Source of the DNA: an uncultured delta proteobacterium
Lineage (GTDB): Bacteria > Desulfobacterota > Desulfobacteria > Desulfobacterales > JAHEIW01
Assembly (NCBI GenBank): GCA_963706575.1
Contig: CAVPNL010000004.1
Location: forward strand, 160,001-224,000
Direction: 5' to 3'
DNA: 64,000 nucleotides
Shown: positions 27,001 through 33,000 of the stretch, piece after piece
Layout of the letters: each line of letters begins with the position of its first letter
Numbering within the stretch: the first letter of the stretch is position 1
Position numbers: made by a program

Positions 27001-30000
27001 TAAATACTTCAAGGGCTGCGTCCCGCAAGTCGATCCTCAGGCGGAGCGGGAATTGAATCTCGATCTGCAATCCAACGCCCTGGAGACCACCAAGAATTTT
27101 GAAATCTTGATGGAAGCCTTTGAATTTCAAAAAGCACTGACGGCTGTGTGGGAATTTATCGCACAAATGAACAAAACGATTGATCTTACCGCCCCCTGGG
27201 TGCTGGCCAAGAAAAAATCAAGTCACAAGCAATTGGCAGCCGTTATTTACCATCTACTTGAAGGGCTTCGAATTATCTCGGGCCTGATTTATCCGGTAAT
27301 GCCGGATACGGCCAAAAAAATGCAACAACATCTCGGACTGAATCCGGACGATTCATTTTATCACCTCAATCAGCTTAGAACCTGGAAAGCGATCGCACCG
27401 GGGACAACCCTGATGAAATCGATTGCTTTATTTCCAAGAATTGAGATGGAAGAAGCGGCTTCGGATTCAGCCGCTCAACCGCAGGAGGAACCCGCTGTTT
27501 TGGAAATCAAACCCGAAATTACATTGGAGGAATTCAGCCGCATCGACTTGAGAGTGGCGACGGTCGTGCATGCCGAGCCAATCCCCAAAGCAAAGAAACT
27601 TTTAAAACTAGAAGTCGATATGGGACATAAACGAACCCTGGTAGCCGGAATTGCTGAAAAATACACAGCTGAAGAAATGGTCGGCAAACAGGTAATCGTT
27701 GTCGCCAATCTAAGACCCGCCAAACTCATGGGAGTGGTGTCCAACGGAATGTTGCTTGCCGCAGTTGACGATTCCGGCCCCACCCTGGCAACTCTGGAAA
27801 AAACCGTAGCACCCGGGACACCGCTCAAATAAGGTTTCAGGTGTACCAGTGTTCAGGTGTCAGTGTTCAGGGTCAACAGATAAGTGCTGAGGACTGAGCA
27901 AAAAAACCTGCCTGCCAATCGACCCTTTCAACATGACCTGTCCTTTTTCGTCATGAATCGTCCTCCCGAGGTCATGGGTTGTCCTTTTCCGTCATGAGCC
28001 GGCACGGGGCCATTTTTGCCCCTTTCTATTTCAATGTACTTCAGACCTCAGTCCTCAGTCCTATCTTTTCAGACCTGAACCTGCCACAGAAAACTTGACC
28101 CCAGAAAGCCGATGAGCGATAATATTATTTTAGGCCAAATGCGAGTTTGCTATCAATCAATGATCAAAAAAAATACGAAATGAAATCATCCTTGAAAACC
28201 GAGAAAACAGAGCGGTGGCCGCTTTTAAGACGTATTCGTCATTTTTACCGCAACCGGATTCTCCGGACCCGATGGCTATTAGGGGCCAATGTTTATTTCG
28301 GAAAGTATGTTGACCGTCTCCCCGATGGATCCATTGTTTTTTTCCCTTGCAGTCAAACCACGCTTTGCTGCGGCATCGCCGGAATTGTTGCCTTTAAAAA
28401 CAAACCGAAGGAGCGTCATAACTTTAAGTTTGAATCACTTGAAGAAATGGTCCGGCAGATCGAAGACACCGGGTATCAGTCCTGCCAGCAAACCGACAGG
28501 TGGAATGATTGCTATCTGAGCGGCAGCGAAAAAATCGATGCCTTATGGCGCCGGGTTCAGACCCTAAAACTAGATGACCGCTTCTTTTCAGTGTTTTCAG
28601 ACGAAAGAGCACAAAACCAGATTGAACGGCTGGCAAATCACCTGGCAGCGATCATTCAAACTGAAACCGGCCTGCTGGCCGAACAAATGGGCCGCCTTTC
28701 ATCAGAACTTGTGGATCTGATTTCCCTGCGGATCGAAAAACTCAAGGATATCGCCTGGAGCCTTGAGAACGATATTCTTTCTAATATAAAAAAAGTAGGA
28801 GATTTTTTTATCCATGTCCACAGTCCTGAAGGGCCATCTCAGACAAGCGTCAGCGTGTTCAAAAAGATAAATGCCGTACTGAACAGCATTGACCGATTGG
28901 AAGTCAGGGGTAGAGATTCGGCCGGAATTTCCATAATGTTTATTTTCGACCCGCCTGGATTTCAAAAATTTGAAGCAGCCCTCACACAGGCCGGCATACG
29001 GGATCAATTTAATGATCGATGTGAACCGGACCTGCTGATCAACGGCGGAATCAACTGCCAGCCGTCGACAACATCGGACGGGAAAAATCAGGTGGCCGTT
29101 GCGGTGACCTATAAAATCGCCCTGGAAATCGGGAGCCTTGGAGACAACGTTCAATACCTGCGCCGGCAAATTGCAAATGATCCGATCTTTCAAATTCTGG
29201 CGACAATTCCGGCATCATTTGAAACGGTTGCGGCCCATACCCGCTGGGCATCGGTGGGTGCCATCACAGAAGCAAATTGCCATCCCGTCGACAATCAGGC
29301 GACCGGCGGAAAGACCCCAAAATGCGGCATCATTCATACCTGCCTCAACGGAGATATCGATAACTACCAGGAACTTAAGGCACAATTCGAAGGTAATGGC
29401 CAACACATTCACAGGGACATCACCACCGACACGAAGATGATTCCACTTAAGATCCAACAGTATCTCCAGCAGGGCCATCCAGTTGATGAGGCTTTTCGAC
29501 TGGCGGTCAACGATTTTGAAGGATCCCATGCCATCTCCATGCATACGGATCTGGCCCCCGGGAAGCTATTTCTGGCGCAAAGAGGCAGCGGCCAGGCTAT
29601 TTTTGTCGGAATCGCAGATGAGCATTATATTCCAAGCTCGGAAGTCTATGGTTTTGTAGAAGAGACCCCTTATTACCTTAAACTGGATGGTGAAAAAACC
29701 GTTGAAGGCATAAACGGGCAGACCCAGGGTCAAATTTTTATTTTAGACCCGCTAAGCAGCGGAGGGTTGGATGGTATCAACGCCCGGTATTATGACGGTA
29801 CACCGTTAGCCCTTAACGAAAACGACATTAAAATTACCGAAATTACGTCACGGGATATCGATCGCCAAAATTACCCGCACTATTTTTTAAAAGAAATCTC
29901 AGAATCACCGGATGCGGTTGAAAAAACACTGCAGAACCGCTGGAAGATTAAAGAGAATAATCAATCCCACTATACGATTGTGCTGGATGAAACCATCATT

Positions 30001-33000
30001 CCTCAATCCCTGCAAAAGGCACTGACAGCCGATCAAATTAAGCGCATCTTTTTTATCGGACAGGGCACCGCCGGGGTGGCCGCATTAGTCTGTGCGAATA
30101 CTCTGAATTATTATCTGAATAACCCTGCTATTCAGATCAGCGCCCTCAAAGCTTCAGAGTTCAGCGGTTTTCAATTAAACGAAAATGATGCCCAAAATGC
30201 CATGGCCGACACCCTGGTTGTCGCCATCAGTCAATCCGGCACCACCACCGACACCAACCGCACCGTTGACATGGTCAAAGAACGCGGCGCTTATACCCTG
30301 GCCATTGTCAACCGTCGCGACTCGGATATTACGTTTAAAGTCAACGGCGTGATGTATACCAGCAGTGGTCGTGATATCGAAATGTCGGTGGCTTCCACCA
30401 AAGCCTTTTATTCCCAAATCGTTGCCGGCGCCATTTTGGGACTTTATATCGCCAGATTAAAAAACCGCCGGGATGATGACTTTGTAAGCGAGGAAACCCA
30501 GCGTCTGCTGGCGCTTCCGTCGCACATGCGCAAAGTGCTCGCCATGCGAGAAGCCATTAAACAATCCGCCCAGCGGCTGGCGGTAACCAGAACCTACTGG
30601 GCGGCCGTTGGCAGCGGGCCGAACAAGGCGGCGGCCGACGAAATTCGCATCAAACTCAGCGAGCTTTGCTATAAAACGATTTCCTCGGATTATGTTGAGG
30701 ACAAAAAGCACATTGACCTGTCATCAGAGCCGTTGATTATCGTGTGTGCCGCGGGCACAAGAAGCACGGTCATTGGAGACATCATAAAAGATACGGCTAT
30801 TTTCAAAGCCCACAAAGCAACTCCGGTCGTCATCGCAAACGAGGGCGAAGATCGTTTTGCCCCTTATGCCGCCGATATTTTTCAGGTTCCGCCGGTTCAG
30901 GAGCATCTGGCCCCCATCTTAAACACGCTGGTGGGCCATATCTGGGGATATTATGCCGCCCTGGCCATCCATAGCGGCTCGCGGTTTTTATACCGATTCC
31001 ACGAAGACCTGCAAAACACCATTGATGGGTATGCCAAAGACGGATTGGATATTTACGAAATAATTCTTGAAAAACCATTCCGCGAAAAGGTGGCCCATTT
31101 TGATAAAGAATTTAGACGAAAAAAAGCAGCCAAACAGTTTCCGTCTGCAATCGGCTTTGACGCGACCTCGGACTTAACCCTTTTGCTCAAATATCTATCC
31201 GGAAGATTGCCGGTTTCAGACTTTGAGCTTGATTTTAGCCAGAAAGGCACCGCCACCAATATGCTCAATGAGATGTTTAAATGTCTGGGGGGTGCGGTTA
31301 ACTATCTGGCACGGCCGGTGGATGCGATTAAACACCAGGCGAAAACCGTCACGGTTGGAACCAGCCGGATCAGTGAACGTATGGAAGGCATCTTATTTGA
31401 CGCTTTGACAGCGGAAAAAATCAATATTTCTCAATTAACCGCCAACAACATTATCGTGTTGAAAAATCTTCAAGATATTGTCCACGAGATTCCCGGTTCC
31501 ATCCTTTATCGGATAGAGGGTTTAGATCTTTTGGGAGAGCCGGTTGATGAAACCACAATAAACGTTATCGCTAAAAGAGGGGCCGTAAAGAAGATCCCTT
31601 CCCGGGTTGAAACCGATGCCCAGTTAAAAGGAACTAAACGCATCATTGTCACACAGGGCAATGTTTATATCGGCAAAGGGCGCAAAGACGAGCGCAGCCT
31701 CGTGATCATACCGATCCTTTCGGGTTCACCTGAATCACCGAACATCATCGAACATCTGGTACTGCTGCATATAACATTTAAAGAAAATATCCCGCTGGGC
31801 GCTAAAATCAAAGCCCTGGGCGGAAAGTATGAACACATCAAAAATATTGTTCAGGAAAGCAGCATCAGCTGGGAGGATCAATTGCTTGAACTCATCGAAG
31901 TCCAGGAGTTGTTTGGAAGATCTGCTGAAAAGGTGGCTGAATTCATTGTATCACACATCAGCGCCTAAATACCTGCCAATCCGGCGTTCGGTTCCCTTAT
32001 AGAAGCGGCCGCCGGCCGCAATACCACCCCGGACACACCCAATCTGAGACCGCCAATGTGACTCTGCTGCTATTAAAAAAAAGTGCACAATTGCCGTTAT
32101 TAAAATTGACATCAAACCGGAGTATGCTATAATCCGTATACAAAAGTGAATATAGGCTCTTATGGCTTTTTTGCGGTGTTGAAAAGAAAAAAACCTTTAA
32201 AATATATATAAGACTTTGTTTTTTAATATAAAAATTAAATTAAATCACTGGTTAAAAAAATATCAGCATGATATAAAATGATTCAAATTCAGACAAAATC
32301 ATTCCATTGTTGGGTTAGGGTGTATAAAAATGGATAACAACCTAAAGCATGCGGGGACGTCTATTGATCGCCTGAAAGAAATCTCTACCTGGGTATCATC
32401 GGTACAGGACCTGGATCAACTGCTTGAACTGATCATCGAAACGGCTACACGGATGATGGATGCAAAAGCCAGTTCGCTGTTGCTTTTGGATCCCAAAACC
32501 CAAAGATTGTATTTCAAAGTGGCCACCGGTGAAAAAAAAGATGACGTCAAGCAGTTTGAAATCGACCTGGGTCAGGGCATTGCGGGCCATGTGGCCCAGA
32601 CAGGCGAGCCGCTGTTGATTCCAAATGTTTCCAAGGACCCGCGCTGGTATAAAGAAATCAGTGAAAGCATCGGGTTTGAAACCCGTTCGATTGCCTGTGT
32701 TCCTATGAAAGTCCGGGGAGAAATTATCGGTGTTGTTGAAATTATTGACAAGACCGACGGCAGTGAGATAACAGATGCCGATTTAAAAATTTTATCCGTC
32801 TTTGCCGAACTTGCTGCCGTGGCCATCGGGAATGCCCGCAAAATCGAACACGATAAAAAGGAAATCAGGGATCTCAAAGAGAAACTGGATCTTAAATATG
32901 AACTGATTGGAGAAAGCCCGGCACTTACAAAAGTCATTTCCGATGCGGTCAAGGTGGCGAACTCGAAAGCCAGCACCTTAATATTGGGAGAAAGCGGCAC

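What a model noticed while it worked through the whole genome (the two positions that open the first line are those of the whole stretch)
28180..31968. Canonical GlmS is missing; a 1,262-aa GlmS-like giant with leader, insertion and sensor-like tail stands in its place
The genome has glmM and glmU but no normal glucosamine-6-phosphate synthase (GlmS, ~610 aa); the only relative is g01390, 1,262 aa, in which the Ntn-amidotransferase cysteine (CGIAGIV) sits behind a ~63-aa conserved leader, the glutaminase domain is split by a ~160-aa insertion, and the SIS domains are followed by a ~340-aa conserved extension that models as a helical bundle plus a small GAF/PAS-like domain. I read it as the cell-wall-precursor GlmS of Desulfobacterales in a new, self-regulating format: a pro-enzyme that must shed its leader to free Cys1 and carries its own metabolite-sensing domain instead of the glmS ribozyme, GlmY/Z sRNAs or GlmR used elsewhere. 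That an essential, near-un [...]
Evidence so far: Six-frame search of this genome with NCBIfam TIGR01135 (glmS, cut-off 418 bits): best hit 240 bits inside g01390 (model positions 62-588), next purF 118 bits; none over cut-off, while all 14 control genomes have one over cut-off. Same search in 61 Desulfobacterales genomes, one per family: 1 (G007) has a canonical glmS (845 bits, open frame 614 aa); 55 have only a 200-246-bit match lying in an open frame of 1,175-1,293 aa (three outliers 906, 1,038, 1,948); 5 no match at E<=1e-50. Swiss-Prot best hit GlmS 27.6% id over aa 301-917. Alignment of 10 members from 10 families: CG[IL][AS]G after a leader of 0-67 aa with conserved (I/V)VFFP; RGRDSAGIS motif only at aa ~245; tail strongly conserved, [...]
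(Added by a program. Inside this text positions count along the whole contig: contig position 160,001 is position 1 of the stretch shown here. "Call 12" and the like, gene names such as g00115 and contig names such as C1 are that model's own, and its searches are not shown. The text may have been shortened before it was handed on; [...] marks where a part breaks off. The agent that wrote the report below was given it as the finding of a first reader that could run no searches.)

Follow-up and report, generated by a model that had tools for sequence, protein, structure and literature searches.

The report
Double-sized GlmS replacing the normal enzyme
Sulfate-reducing bacteria of the order Desulfobacterales make the essential cell-wall precursor enzyme GlmS in a twice-as-long form that keeps every catalytic residue but carries a conserved leader in front of its catalytic first cysteine, three inserts and an extra end domain of unknown role.

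Summary
Window 28180-31968 (+) is one 1,262-aa ORF. It scores 249 bits on the glmS model (cut-off 418), and no canonical glmS, nagB or nagA was found in this 92%-complete genome.

All catalytic and substrate-binding residues of GlmS are kept in 21 of 21 diverse members. It lies inside the "tail" at aa 1045-1063. The mature part folds at pLDDT 88 and superposes on E. coli GlmS (Z 42, 595 of 608 residues).

Of 401 genomes of the phylum, 334 have canonical glmS and 44 have the new end domain; one fragmented assembly shows both. In relatives the gene lies next to glmM, or next to a GlmU-C-like acetyltransferase gene.

I read it as the housekeeping GlcN6P synthase. The leader (30-73 aa in 74 of 80 members, never Met at position -1) must be cut off to free Cys64. 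A nested leaderless clade starts at M-C. Cleavage is inferred, not shown.

The "sensor" reading of the end domain is unsupported. It matches no Pfam or PDB sequence, its fold was not searched alone, and GlmR-family genes are equally patchy with either form. My literature searches found nothing on this family. Verdict: new variant of a known kind.

The parts
28095..28123 (+). sigma-70-like promoter match (TTGACC, 17 nt, GATAAT) about 57 nt upstream of the ATG
   Evidence: 10 of 12 positions match. This is a consensus match only. A terminator-like hairpin of the upstream metG lies at 28006-28022.
28180..31968 (+). ORF of the long GlmS (1,262 aa plus stop)
28180..28368 (+). Leader, aa 1-63. Predicted: residues 1-9 disordered, a basic helix at 12-35, short strands at 38-40 and 52-54 (the conserved VYFG and IVFFP motifs), and a low-confidence linker at 57-63.
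   Evidence: One search gives the model. P56 in 72 of 73 aligned leader-bearing rows, F55 in 66, G41 in 60; leader lengths 30-73 aa, median 54.
28369..28371 (+). Cys64, the equivalent of the N-terminal nucleophile Cys1
   Evidence: Invariant in 80 of 80 members. It aligns with the Cys of M-C-G-I in 8 canonical GlmS.
28405..28866 (+). Insert 1 (aa ~76-229): a helical bundle between the first strand and the first helix of the glutaminase domain. It carries the conserved D190, W193 and N202.
   Evidence: Searches give the boundaries against E. coli and canonical GlmS. Searches show helices at pLDDT mostly 85-98. Searches show the conserved columns.
28876..29844 (+). Rest of the class-II glutaminase domain (aa 233-555): R243, D246, R355, W356, H368, N390, G391, D417. 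It holds about 55 extra residues between aa 250 and 350 (two extra helices at 258-280 in the model).
   Evidence: the 1xff_A glutaminase domain aligns at Z 30.1, rmsd 1.6, 236 of 238 residues.
29857..30966 (+). Isomerase module with two SIS subdomains (aa 560-929): T630, S684, Q685, S686, T689, S739, K825, E828, H844
   Evidence: 2poc_A aligns at Z 41.0, rmsd 1.9, 332 of 339 residues.
30967..31311 (+). Insert 3 (aa 930-1044): helical, lying between the last helix of the isomerase module and the catalytic C-tail
   Evidence: alignment; helices at model residues 845-980.
31312..31368 (+). Displaced catalytic C-tail (aa 1045-1063, R-P-V-D-A-I-K-H-Q-A-K-T-V-T-V-G-T-S-R). A1054 and K1055 align with the Ala-Lys of the canonical end motif.
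   Evidence: 21 of 21 long forms keep A-K-T-V-T-V; model residues 1-992 align to chain residues 1-603 of 4amv_A; the only low-pLDDT stretch apart from the His844 loop.
31369..31965 (+). End domain (aa 1064-1262): an alpha/beta domain found only in this family. Invariant residues are G1106, Y1110, G1119, G1134, S1141, R1142, G1151, K1153, G1167, P1178, L1213 and E1226.
   Evidence: conservation; secondary structure, pLDDT 83-93; no match; 222 clusters, nearly all long forms or their fragments.

Best explanation
This gene encodes the organism's glucosamine-6-phosphate synthase (glutamine + fructose-6-P -> GlcN6P + glutamate). It is the first enzyme of the UDP-GlcNAc route to peptidoglycan and lipid A. 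It occurs here in a lineage-wide alternative architecture that has displaced the ~610-aa GlmS.

Shown:
- The two catalytic modules, all catalytic and substrate-binding residues and the ammonia-gate Trp are kept.
- The model superposes on closed E. coli GlmS.
- The canonical C-terminal lysine tail is retained, but it is moved behind a 115-aa helical insert and followed by a 200-aa domain.

Inferred:
1. The protein is made as a precursor. A class-II (Ntn) glutaminase needs the free amino group of its first cysteine. No member with a leader has Met at position -1. The 30-73-aa leader must therefore be cut at the X|Cys bond, most likely by self-cleavage as in Bacillus-type PurF and glutamate synthase (recalled). 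Until then glutamine-dependent activity would be off.
2. The leader has a conserved folded core. It may act as an intramolecular inhibitor or folding aid.
3. The helical inserts and the end domain sit around the two elements that move during catalysis, the C-tail and the His loop. They probably control domain closure or oligomer state. Whether they sense a metabolite is open.
For: - Sequence: 249 bits on the glmS model. The best PDB sequence hits are E. coli GlmS (E 3.8e-23, aa 339-928 against chain residues 57-589) and human GFAT1.
- Residues: the equivalents of Cys1, Arg26, Arg73, Trp74, His86, Asn98, Gly99, Asp123, Thr302, Gln348, Ser349, Thr352, Lys485, Glu488, His504, Ala602 and Lys603 are identical in 21 of 21 long forms from 21 genomes. 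The roles of Cys1, Glu488, His504 and Lys603 are taken from passages of PMC9272926; the other roles are recalled.
- Fold: model pLDDT 88, pTM 0.77. 4amv_A aligns at Z 42.0, rmsd 4.7, 595 of 608 residues. Foldseek gives 2j6h_A a TM-score of 0.74 normalised to the target.
- Distribution: of 401 genomes of the phylum, 334 have canonical glmS over the cut-off and 44 have the end domain. Only G342, a 600-contig assembly, shows both. Families f63 and f65 hold both kinds of genome, but never together in one genome.
- Context: an LbH-glmM-long glmS operon in L010; long glmS followed by glmM in L018; the same LbH gene directly upstream in L020, L023 and L025.
- No other route found: no canonical glmS, nagB or nagA in this genome.
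- Leader: present in 74 of 80 members, with Met at -1 only in the 6 leaderless ones. The leaderless clade L012/L059/L068 is nested inside leader-bearing forms at 98% support, and a stop codon lies just upstream of its M-C start.
- Precedent in the same genome: its purF has 13 residues before its C-G-I-F-G.
Against: - No activity, cleavage or expression level is shown.
- It fails the curated glmS cut-off (249 against 418 bits). Ser303 is Ala in 21 of 21 long forms, and Glu351 is Thr in all 21, so altered substrate handling is not excluded.
- The genome is 91.8% complete with 6.4% contamination.
- 8 of 121 genomes of the order show neither form, among them G292 at 97% completeness.
- Two genomes of the order (G406, G473) have canonical glmS on short contigs and no long form.
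- Only 5 of 20 relatives have a pathway gene next to it. Five others have an Fe-ADH-like gene, in four of them together with a sugar-aminotransferase-like gene, which could point to a second use of the product.
- The RNA evidence consists only of contigs of relatives (90-95% alike) from RNA libraries.
Confidence: 0.72

Rival explanations
1. It is a paralogous amidotransferase that aminates another ketose phosphate, or that feeds a special amino-sugar pathway. The housekeeping GlcN6P would then come from an unrecognised enzyme or from uptake.
For: - It scores below the curated glmS cut-off.
- Ser303 is Ala and Glu351 is Thr in 21 of 21 long forms.
- An Fe-ADH-like gene lies directly upstream in L009, L012, L013, L015 and L016, joined by a DegT/LegC-type aminotransferase gene in all but L012.
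- Two genomes carry two copies (G476, G506).
Against: - All other Fru6P-binding and catalytic residues are kept.
- It is nearly exclusive with canonical glmS in 401 genomes.
- It is linked to glmM or the LbH gene in 5 of 20 loci.
- No nagB or nagA was found.
Confidence: 0.1
2. The leader is not removed. The glutaminase module is then silent or regulatory, and the enzyme aminates Fru6P with free ammonia, which is plentiful in sulfidic sediments. Alternatively, the leader is a targeting or anchoring helix.
For: - The leader has a conserved, confidently folded core: a helix at 12-35 and two strands, at pLDDT 76-90.
- No conserved residue stands at position -1.
- Cleavage is untested.
Against: - Cys64 and every glutamine-binding residue are invariant in 80 of 80 N-terminal halves, which is hard to explain for a silent site.
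- Six members start at M-C like canonical GlmS.
- Passages of PMC11822699 describe the N-terminal cysteine as imperative for E. coli GlmS.
Confidence: 0.12
3. The inserts and the end domain are architectural: a new oligomer interface, or a brace between the two catalytic modules. They are not a metabolite sensor. Regulation would then be by product inhibition or by unknown factors.
For: - No PAS, GAF or other ligand-binding family matches in 21 members, and there is no PDB sequence match.
- The domain occurs only at the end of these proteins: 222 clusters among 1.84 billion representatives.
- pTM 0.77 for the 1,199-residue model suggests a fixed packing of all the parts.
Against: - The end domain has 12 invariant residues, including S1141-R1142 and G1151-x-K1153, a pattern that would fit phosphate binding (inference).
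- It follows directly on the mobile catalytic tail.
Confidence: 0.4

Closest known systems
Bacterial GlmS (glutamine--fructose-6-phosphate aminotransferase, E. coli; PDB 4amv, 2j6h, 1jxa)
   Same: - The same two modules in the same order and relative position (Z 42.0, 595 of 608 residues aligned).
- The same catalytic and binding residues.
- The same mobile His loop and C-tail, which are the only low-pLDDT stretches.
- The same place in the pathway, judged from gene context and from exclusivity.
   Different: - About 27-31% identity to canonical GlmS of the same phylum.
- Below the equivalog cut-off.
- Twice the length.
- Cys is preceded by a 30-73-aa leader in 74 of 80 members.
- About 155 aa are inserted after strand 1, about 55 aa later in the glutaminase domain, and 115 aa before the C-tail.
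- About 200 aa follow a tail that ends the protein in all 8 canonical sequences compared.
Eukaryotic GFAT1 (PDB 6r4e and related)
   Same: - It is the best Foldseek match (E 1.4e-29).
- It is also a GlmS with extra sequence in the glutaminase domain and with regulation built into the protein (UDP-GlcNAc feedback and phosphorylation; passages of PMC9272926).
   Different: - GFAT starts at M-C and ends with the canonical tail (recalled).
- Its insert is short and at another place (recalled).
- There is no leader and no end domain.
Ntn (class-II) amidotransferases made with a propeptide: Bacillus-type PurF and glutamate synthase large subunit
   Same: - A catalytic Cys lies behind a short N-terminal peptide that has to be removed.
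- The same genome's purF has 13 residues before its Cys.
   Different: - Those propeptides are short, 11 and about 36 aa (recalled), and lack the folded conserved core predicted here.
- No propeptide is described for any GlmS in the papers I searched.
Known GlmS regulators: glmS ribozyme, GlmY/GlmZ-RapZ, GlmR (YvcK)
   Same: They deal with the same need, feedback control of GlcN6P synthesis.
   Different: - No glmS ribozyme was found near the gene or in the genome.
- No PF01933 (GlmR/CofD family) gene was found in this genome.
- That family is as frequent with the long form (11 of 44) as without it (80 of 357), so replacement of GlmR is not indicated.

Membership tests
GlmS equivalog (NCBIfam TIGR01135 / NF001484) | Whole-protein score over the curated cut-off | tested here: not met
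   249.4 bits against 418.05 for TIGR01135, and 261.3 against 381 for NF001484. In six frames, 240.2 bits.
GlmS equivalog (NCBIfam TIGR01135 / NF001484) | Catalytic Cys is residue 1 after removal of the initiator Met | tested here: not met
   Cys is residue 64 of the encoded protein. 74 of 80 members have a leader, and only 6 start at M-C. The feature would be met only after proteolysis, which was not tested.
GlmS/GFAT enzyme family (class-II glutaminase + two SIS subdomains) | Glutaminase residues (Cys1, Arg26, Arg73, Trp74, Asn98, Gly99, Asp123; E. coli numbering, partly recalled) | tested here: met
   C64, R243, R355, W356, N390, G391 and D417 are identical in 21 of 21 long forms and 8 of 8 canonical sequences, and invariant in 80 of 80 N-terminal halves.
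GlmS/GFAT enzyme family (class-II glutaminase + two SIS subdomains) | Isomerase residues Glu488, His504, Lys603 and the sugar-phosphate binders (Thr302, Ser347, Gln348, Ser349, Thr352) | tested here: met
   E828, H844, K1055, T630, S/T684, Q685, S686 and T689 are kept in 21 of 21. The exceptions are Ser303 to Ala in 21 of 21 and Glu351 to Thr in 21 of 21.
GlmS/GFAT enzyme family (class-II glutaminase + two SIS subdomains) | The protein ends with the catalytic tail | tested here: not met
   The tail motif lies at aa 1045-1063 and about 200 residues follow it.
GlmS/GFAT enzyme family (class-II glutaminase + two SIS subdomains) | Overall fold and arrangement of the domains | tested here: met
   4amv_A at Z 42.0, rmsd 4.7, 595 of 608 residues; 6r4e_A at Z 41.4. 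Foldseek E 1e-29.
GlmS/GFAT enzyme family (class-II glutaminase + two SIS subdomains) | Makes GlcN6P from Fru6P and glutamine | not testable with these tools
   Only indirect evidence: exclusivity with canonical glmS and linkage to glmM or the LbH gene.
Ntn amidotransferases with a self-cleaved propeptide | A peptide precedes the nucleophile Cys and is removed to give the active enzyme | not testable with these tools
   The peptide is present and conserved, and the linker at 57-63 has pLDDT under 50. Removal is inferred from the Ntn rule.
PAS / GAF sensor domains (for the end domain) | Match to a PAS or GAF profile or fold | tested here: inconclusive
   No Pfam match at E up to 10 was shared by more than 1 of 21 members. 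There was no PDB sequence match under E 0.2. In the searches with the whole model the listed matches lay within model residues 1-1005.
glmS ribozyme (RF00234) | Rfam match upstream of the gene | tested here: not met
   No Rfam match at E up to 1 in 27000-33000, and none in the genome. The controls B. subtilis and D. radiodurans were found.

The most novel reading that the evidence does not exclude
GlmS here is a true zymogen with built-in control. The conserved leader would keep the glutaminase site shut until self-cleavage. The end domain sits directly behind the mobile catalytic tail. It would bind a pathway metabolite (GlcN6P, UDP-GlcNAc or a related sugar phosphate) through its invariant Ser-Arg and Gly-x-Lys residues, and so gate tail closure or the cleavage step. 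That would be a protein-level feedback device, unlike the ribozyme, the sRNA cascade or GlmR.
Probability: 0.15. Interest if true: 0.85.

Novelty: new variant of a known kind. Interest (0 to 1): 0.62.

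Why it matters
GlmS is one of the most conserved and best studied essential enzymes, and it is an antimicrobial target. 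In the 8 canonical sequences compared here (and, as recalled, in GlmS generally) its two ends are catalytic: Cys1 at the start and the lysine tail at the very end.

Here a whole order of abundant sediment sulfate reducers, plus about eleven further families of the phylum, use a version in which both ends are buried inside a protein of twice the length.

If the precursor reading is right, this would be the first GlmS that needs proteolytic activation. Nature has already provided leaderless controls for that test.

There is also a practical point. Automatic annotation calls these proteins only 'SIS domain-containing protein'. Curated glmS models miss them, so pathway reconstructions of these genomes show a false gap in cell-wall precursor synthesis.

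Tried and rejected
- End domain (aa 1061-1262). Pfam on 21 members found nothing shared. A profile search against PDB sequences gave a best E of 0.23. The ESM Atlas features search gave a best score of 0.80, which is chance level.
- Stand-alone copies of the end domain. A search among proteins of 111-354 aa returned only contig-end fragments of long forms.
- Representative search. It gave 222 clusters. One odd hit (P0354) is a repeat protein and spurious. P0371 (1,545 aa) carries the domain at its end, with no Pfam family at all in the protein. I did not follow it further.
- Fold searches with the whole 1,199-residue model list only GlmS, SIS and amidotransferase chains, so the folds of insert 1, insert 3 and the end domain remain unsearched.
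- Test of 'GlmR replaced'. PF01933 is patchy with either form, so there is no support.
- glmS ribozyme: none found.
- GlmU. Atypical or split forms are common in the phylum, also in genomes with canonical glmS (218 of 401 over the cut-off). A remodelled GlmU is therefore not specific to the long GlmS.
- RNA. Only Logan contigs of four RNA libraries from three studies could be laid. They are 90-95% alike (relatives) and cover parts of the gene, including 28159-28390. Contigs show no starts, ends or levels.
- Literature. Searches found nothing on this family or on a GlmS propeptide. Subscription journals are not covered.
- Complex prediction was not used. No claim in this report rests on a binding test.

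Full report
THE OBJECT

Window 28180-31968 (+) is a single open frame of 1,262 aa. The stop-to-stop frame would also allow a TTG start at 28147. Pfam sees only a class-II glutamine amidotransferase domain (aa 349-487) and SIS domains (from aa 620). The NCBIfam glmS equivalog model gives 249 bits, far below its cut-off of 418, over model positions 62-588.

A sigma-70-like promoter match lies at 28095-28123, behind a terminator-like hairpin of the upstream metG. No Rfam family matches in 27000-33000.

The upstream genes are holB, a PSP1-domain gene and metG. Downstream lie a GAF/sigma-54 activator gene, a response regulator gene and, on the other strand, pyrG.

IS THE NORMAL ENZYME MISSING?

In the window's own genome (25 contigs, 91.8% complete, 6.4% contamination) the best six-frame match to the glmS model is this gene at 240 bits. 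Nothing passes the cut-off, while all 14 control genomes have a match over it. The other matches are:
- purF;
- a glutamate-synthase-type amidotransferase next to GXGXG and glutamine-synthetase-like genes;
- an RpiR regulator.

No nagB and no nagA were found, so no deaminase or salvage route to GlcN6P is visible. glmM is present at 570 bits.

glmU is not present as one gene.
- A uridylyltransferase half lies behind atpD-atpC at contig C4:141489-142278. It is read in two frames, which may be a frameshift or an assembly error.
- A GlmU-C-like left-handed-helix protein of 417 aa lies directly upstream of glmM on contig C2.

DISTRIBUTION

Order level. In 121 genomes of the same order:
- 110 have only a sub-cut-off glmS match (148-249 bits), lying in long frames, mostly about 1,140-1,355 aa;
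- 3 have a match over the cut-off (G406 and G473 at about 845 bits on short contigs; G342 at 565 bits);
- 8 have none.

Phylum level. In 401 genomes spread over the phylum:
- 334 have canonical glmS over the cut-off;
- 6 have canonical-type matches in two or three pieces; the one I examined, G187, is a canonical gene broken over four frames;
- 43 have only the long-type match;
- 18 have none at E <= 1e-40.

Searching the same 401 genomes with aa 930-1262 finds the new C-terminal part in 44 genomes. These are 42 of the 43 long-type genomes, plus G393 (a fragment) and G342. The missing one, G390, has its gene cut by a contig end.

Only G342, a 600-contig assembly, shows both a full canonical-type gene and a fragment of the long form. 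Two families of the phylum, f63 and f65, contain genomes of both kinds, but never both forms in one genome. In f63 the long forms belong to two different branches of the tree. This looks like repeated displacement of one form by the other.

Names on public records include Desulfobacteraceae, Desulfosarcinaceae, Desulfatibacillum, Desulfonema, Desulfobacula, Desulfosalsimonas, Desulfamplus and the cultured Desulfobacter latus AcRS2.

The protein collection holds more than 7,000 clusters at 90% identity. Where they are named at all, they are called 'SIS domain-containing protein' or, by JGI, glucosamine--fructose-6-phosphate aminotransferase.

ANATOMY

I aligned P0001, 20 long forms from 20 other genomes and 8 canonical GlmS of the same phylum.

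Every residue that I know as catalytic or substrate-binding in E. coli GlmS is identical in 21 of 21 long forms:

| E. coli residue | In P0001 |
|---|---|
| Cys1 | C64 |
| Arg26 | R243 |
| Arg73, Trp74 | R355, W356 |
| His86 | H368 |
| Asn98, Gly99 | N390, G391 |
| Asp123 | D417 |
| Thr302 | T630 |
| Gln348, Ser349, Thr352 | Q685, S686, T689 |
| Lys485, Glu488 | K825, E828 |
| His504 | H844 |
| Ala602, Lys603 | A1054, K1055 |

Ser347 is Ser or Thr. Two conserved positions differ in all long forms: Ser303 is Ala and Glu351 is Thr. The catalytic roles of Cys1, Glu488, His504 and Lys603 are stated in passages of PMC9272926 that I read. The other roles are recalled.

All 8 canonical sequences end with V-D-Q-P-R-N-L-A-K-S-V-T-V-E. 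This motif aligns with an invariant R-P-(V/I)-D-A-I-(K/R)-H-Q-A-K-T-V-T-V-G-T-S-R at aa 1045-1063. The protein is therefore a complete GlmS with the following additions:
- a leader (aa 1-63);
- insert 1 (aa ~76-229);
- about 55 extra residues between aa 250 and 350;
- insert 3 (aa 930-1044), placed before the catalytic tail;
- an added end domain (aa 1064-1262).

STRUCTURE

The mature part (aa 64-1262), folded with a 61-sequence alignment, gives mean pLDDT 88.0 and pTM 0.77. Only two stretches fall below pLDDT 50. They are the loop that carries His844 and the catalytic tail, the two elements that are mobile in GlmS (the mobility is recalled).

Foldseek ranks human GFAT1 and E. coli GlmS first (E about 1e-29; TM-score normalised to the target 0.71-0.74).

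The Foldseek-independent search over 48,161 chains gives:
- E. coli GlmS 4amv_A at Z 42.0, rmsd 4.7, 595 of 608 residues, model 1-992 onto chain 1-603;
- the isolated isomerase domain 2poc_A at Z 41.0, rmsd 1.9;
- the isolated glutaminase domain 1xff_A at Z 30.1, rmsd 1.6, 236 of 238 residues.

Insert 1 and insert 3 are helical. The end domain has the order helices, two long strands, helices, three strands, helices.

THE END DOMAIN

- It matches no Pfam family (21 members scanned).
- It matches no PDB sequence.
- It matches nothing credible in the ESM Atlas.
- Among 1.84 billion representative proteins, 222 match at E <= 0.001. Of the 150 that are listed, nearly all are proteins of about 1,130-1,260 aa with the domain at their very end, or fragments of such proteins.
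- One 1,545-aa protein without any Pfam domain also ends with it (29% identity).
- It has 12 invariant residues across the 21 diverse members, among them S1141-R1142 and G1151-x-K1153.

That it senses a metabolite is a guess. Nothing I could run supports or excludes it.

THE LEADER

Of 80 N-terminal halves, 74 carry 30-73 residues in front of the Cys (median 54 among the 73 rows with a safely placed start). They share a core of (V/I)-(Y/F)-F-G-(R/K) and, about ten residues on, (I/L/V)-(V/I)-(F/L)-F-P. P56 is kept in 72 of 73 rows, F55 in 66 and G41 in 60.

The residue before the Cys is C, N, F, A, S, G, Y, H or L. Met stands there only in the 6 leaderless members. Internal initiation followed by Met removal therefore cannot expose the Cys in the others.

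The model of aa 1-600 (pLDDT 89.5) predicts:
- residues 1-9 disordered;
- a basic helix at 12-35;
- two short strands at the conserved motifs;
- pLDDT below 50 for residues 57-63, just before Cys64.

On a tree of 80 long and 8 canonical sequences:
- the long forms are one clade (support 100) on a very long stem;
- a divergent, shorter and leaderless clade (families f18 and f65, 1,127-1,163 aa) is sister to the rest;
- the three other leaderless sequences (L012, L059, L068) form one clade (support 98) nested deep among leader-bearing ones, which reads as a secondary loss.

In those three a stop codon lies one to five codons upstream of the M-C start.

Two further points bear on the leader. [quoted passage not shown] The same genome's purF has 13 residues before its Cys, like the Bacillus enzyme whose 11-residue propeptide is removed (recalled).

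I conclude that the leader has to come off for glutamine-dependent activity. This is an inference from the Ntn rule, not an observation.

GENE CONTEXT IN RELATIVES

I examined 20 loci:
- In L010 the order on one strand is GlmU-C-like LbH gene, glmM, long glmS, with gaps of about 25 nt. pgi converges on the end of this operon.
- In L018 glmM follows the long glmS.
- In L020, L023 and L025 the same LbH gene lies directly upstream. It is 51-53% identical to the one beside glmM in the window's genome.
- pyrG is adjacent in 4 loci, and it lies about 4 kb away in the window.
- carA and carB flank the gene in L021. guaA is adjacent in L019 and L025.
- An Fe-ADH-like gene lies directly upstream in five loci of the order (L009, L012, L013, L015, L016). 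In four of them (all but L012) a DegT/LegC-type aminotransferase gene stands beside it. I did not resolve the meaning of these neighbours.

REGULATORS

- No glmS ribozyme was found in the genome.
- No PF01933 (GlmR/CofD family) gene was found in the genome.
- Across the phylum that family occurs in 11 of 44 genomes with the long form and in 80 of 357 without it. The idea that the long form replaces GlmR therefore gets no support.

EXPRESSION

Contigs from four RNA libraries of three sediment or seawater studies, 90-95% alike, cover parts of the gene, including 28159-28390 in the leader region. This is weak evidence that relatives transcribe the gene, leader included. Contigs show neither ends nor levels, and DNA may be present in such libraries.

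VERDICT

The best explanation is a functional GlcN6P synthase in a new format that has displaced the canonical enzyme (confidence about 0.7-0.8 for the function). It is probably made as a precursor (perhaps 0.5-0.6). The added modules have an unknown role, possibly regulatory.

It fails the curated equivalog cut-off and two formal GlmS features: Cys at position 1, and a tail at the very end. I therefore file it as a new variant of a known kind, not as an ordinary member.

I found nothing on it in the papers searched. Subscription journals are not covered by that library.

Noticed in passing
G000 contig C4:141489-142278 (about 18 kb upstream of the window start) and contig C2:143134-145851: GlmU is split. 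A uridylyltransferase half follows atpD-atpC and is read in two overlapping frames (186 and 128 aa), which is either a frameshift or an assembly error. A 417-aa GlmU-C-like left-handed-helix protein with no Pfam match lies directly upstream of glmM. None of the 14 same-order genomes sampled has a GlmU match at E <= 1e-80.
   Followed up: partly
L010:8141-9436, L020:2032-3306, L023:1837-3216, L025:6666-8063, L005:2956-4206: There is a conserved family of 417-466-aa LbH proteins, 51-53% identical across the lineages compared. They carry about 200 residues of unknown function after the GlmU-C-like part. They sit beside glmM or directly upstream of the long glmS. This is a candidate stand-alone GlcN-1-P acetyltransferase.
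   Followed up: partly
window 27887-28058: The metG-glmS spacer holds a 172-nt unit. It is bounded by perfect 12-nt inverted repeats (27887-27898 and 28047-28058) and contains two 25-nt direct repeats (27932-27956 and 27973-27997). RNA-library contigs of relatives break at about 27882-27887 and at 28047-28078, as if the unit were variable or mobile.
   Followed up: no
L009:6759-9284, L013:833-3281, L015:778-3301, L016:6694-8949, L012:6586-7701: In five genomes of the order an Fe-ADH-like gene (355-419 aa) lies directly upstream of the long glmS on the same strand. In four of them (all but L012) a DegT/LegC-type sugar aminotransferase gene stands beside it. This may be a linked amino-sugar pathway.
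   Followed up: no
P0371 (1,545 aa); G390:C37:13435-15453 (frame of 1,556 aa): There are still longer proteins. P0371 ends with a homologue of the end domain (29% identity) but has no Pfam family. A 1,556-aa frame in G390 gives weak glmS-model matches (E 4e-17 and 6e-8). They may form a second, more divergent paralogue family.
   Followed up: partly
G427:C21:41816-43582; G476 (two places on C1); G506 (C253 and C64): One genome of the order has the long-type match inside a frame of 1,948 aa, which suggests a further fusion. Two genomes carry two long-type copies each.
   Followed up: no
L002:1462-2877 (G000 contig C6): The genome's purF has 13 residues before its catalytic C-G-I-F-G and a C-terminal cysteine cluster motif, as in Bacillus-type PurF with a propeptide.
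   Followed up: no
window 32330-34551 and 35804-37456: Downstream of the gene lie a GAF-domain sigma-54 activator gene and a response-regulator gene. pyrG follows on the minus strand. pyrG is directly adjacent to the long glmS in 4 of 20 relatives.
   Followed up: no
G342:C154:543-2360 and G342:C544:1387-1536: This is the only sampled genome with both a full canonical-type glmS and a fragment of the long form. The canonical-type gene scores 565 bits, well below the about 830-870 bits usual in the phylum. The assembly has 600 contigs, so this may be contamination or a recent acquisition.
   Followed up: partly
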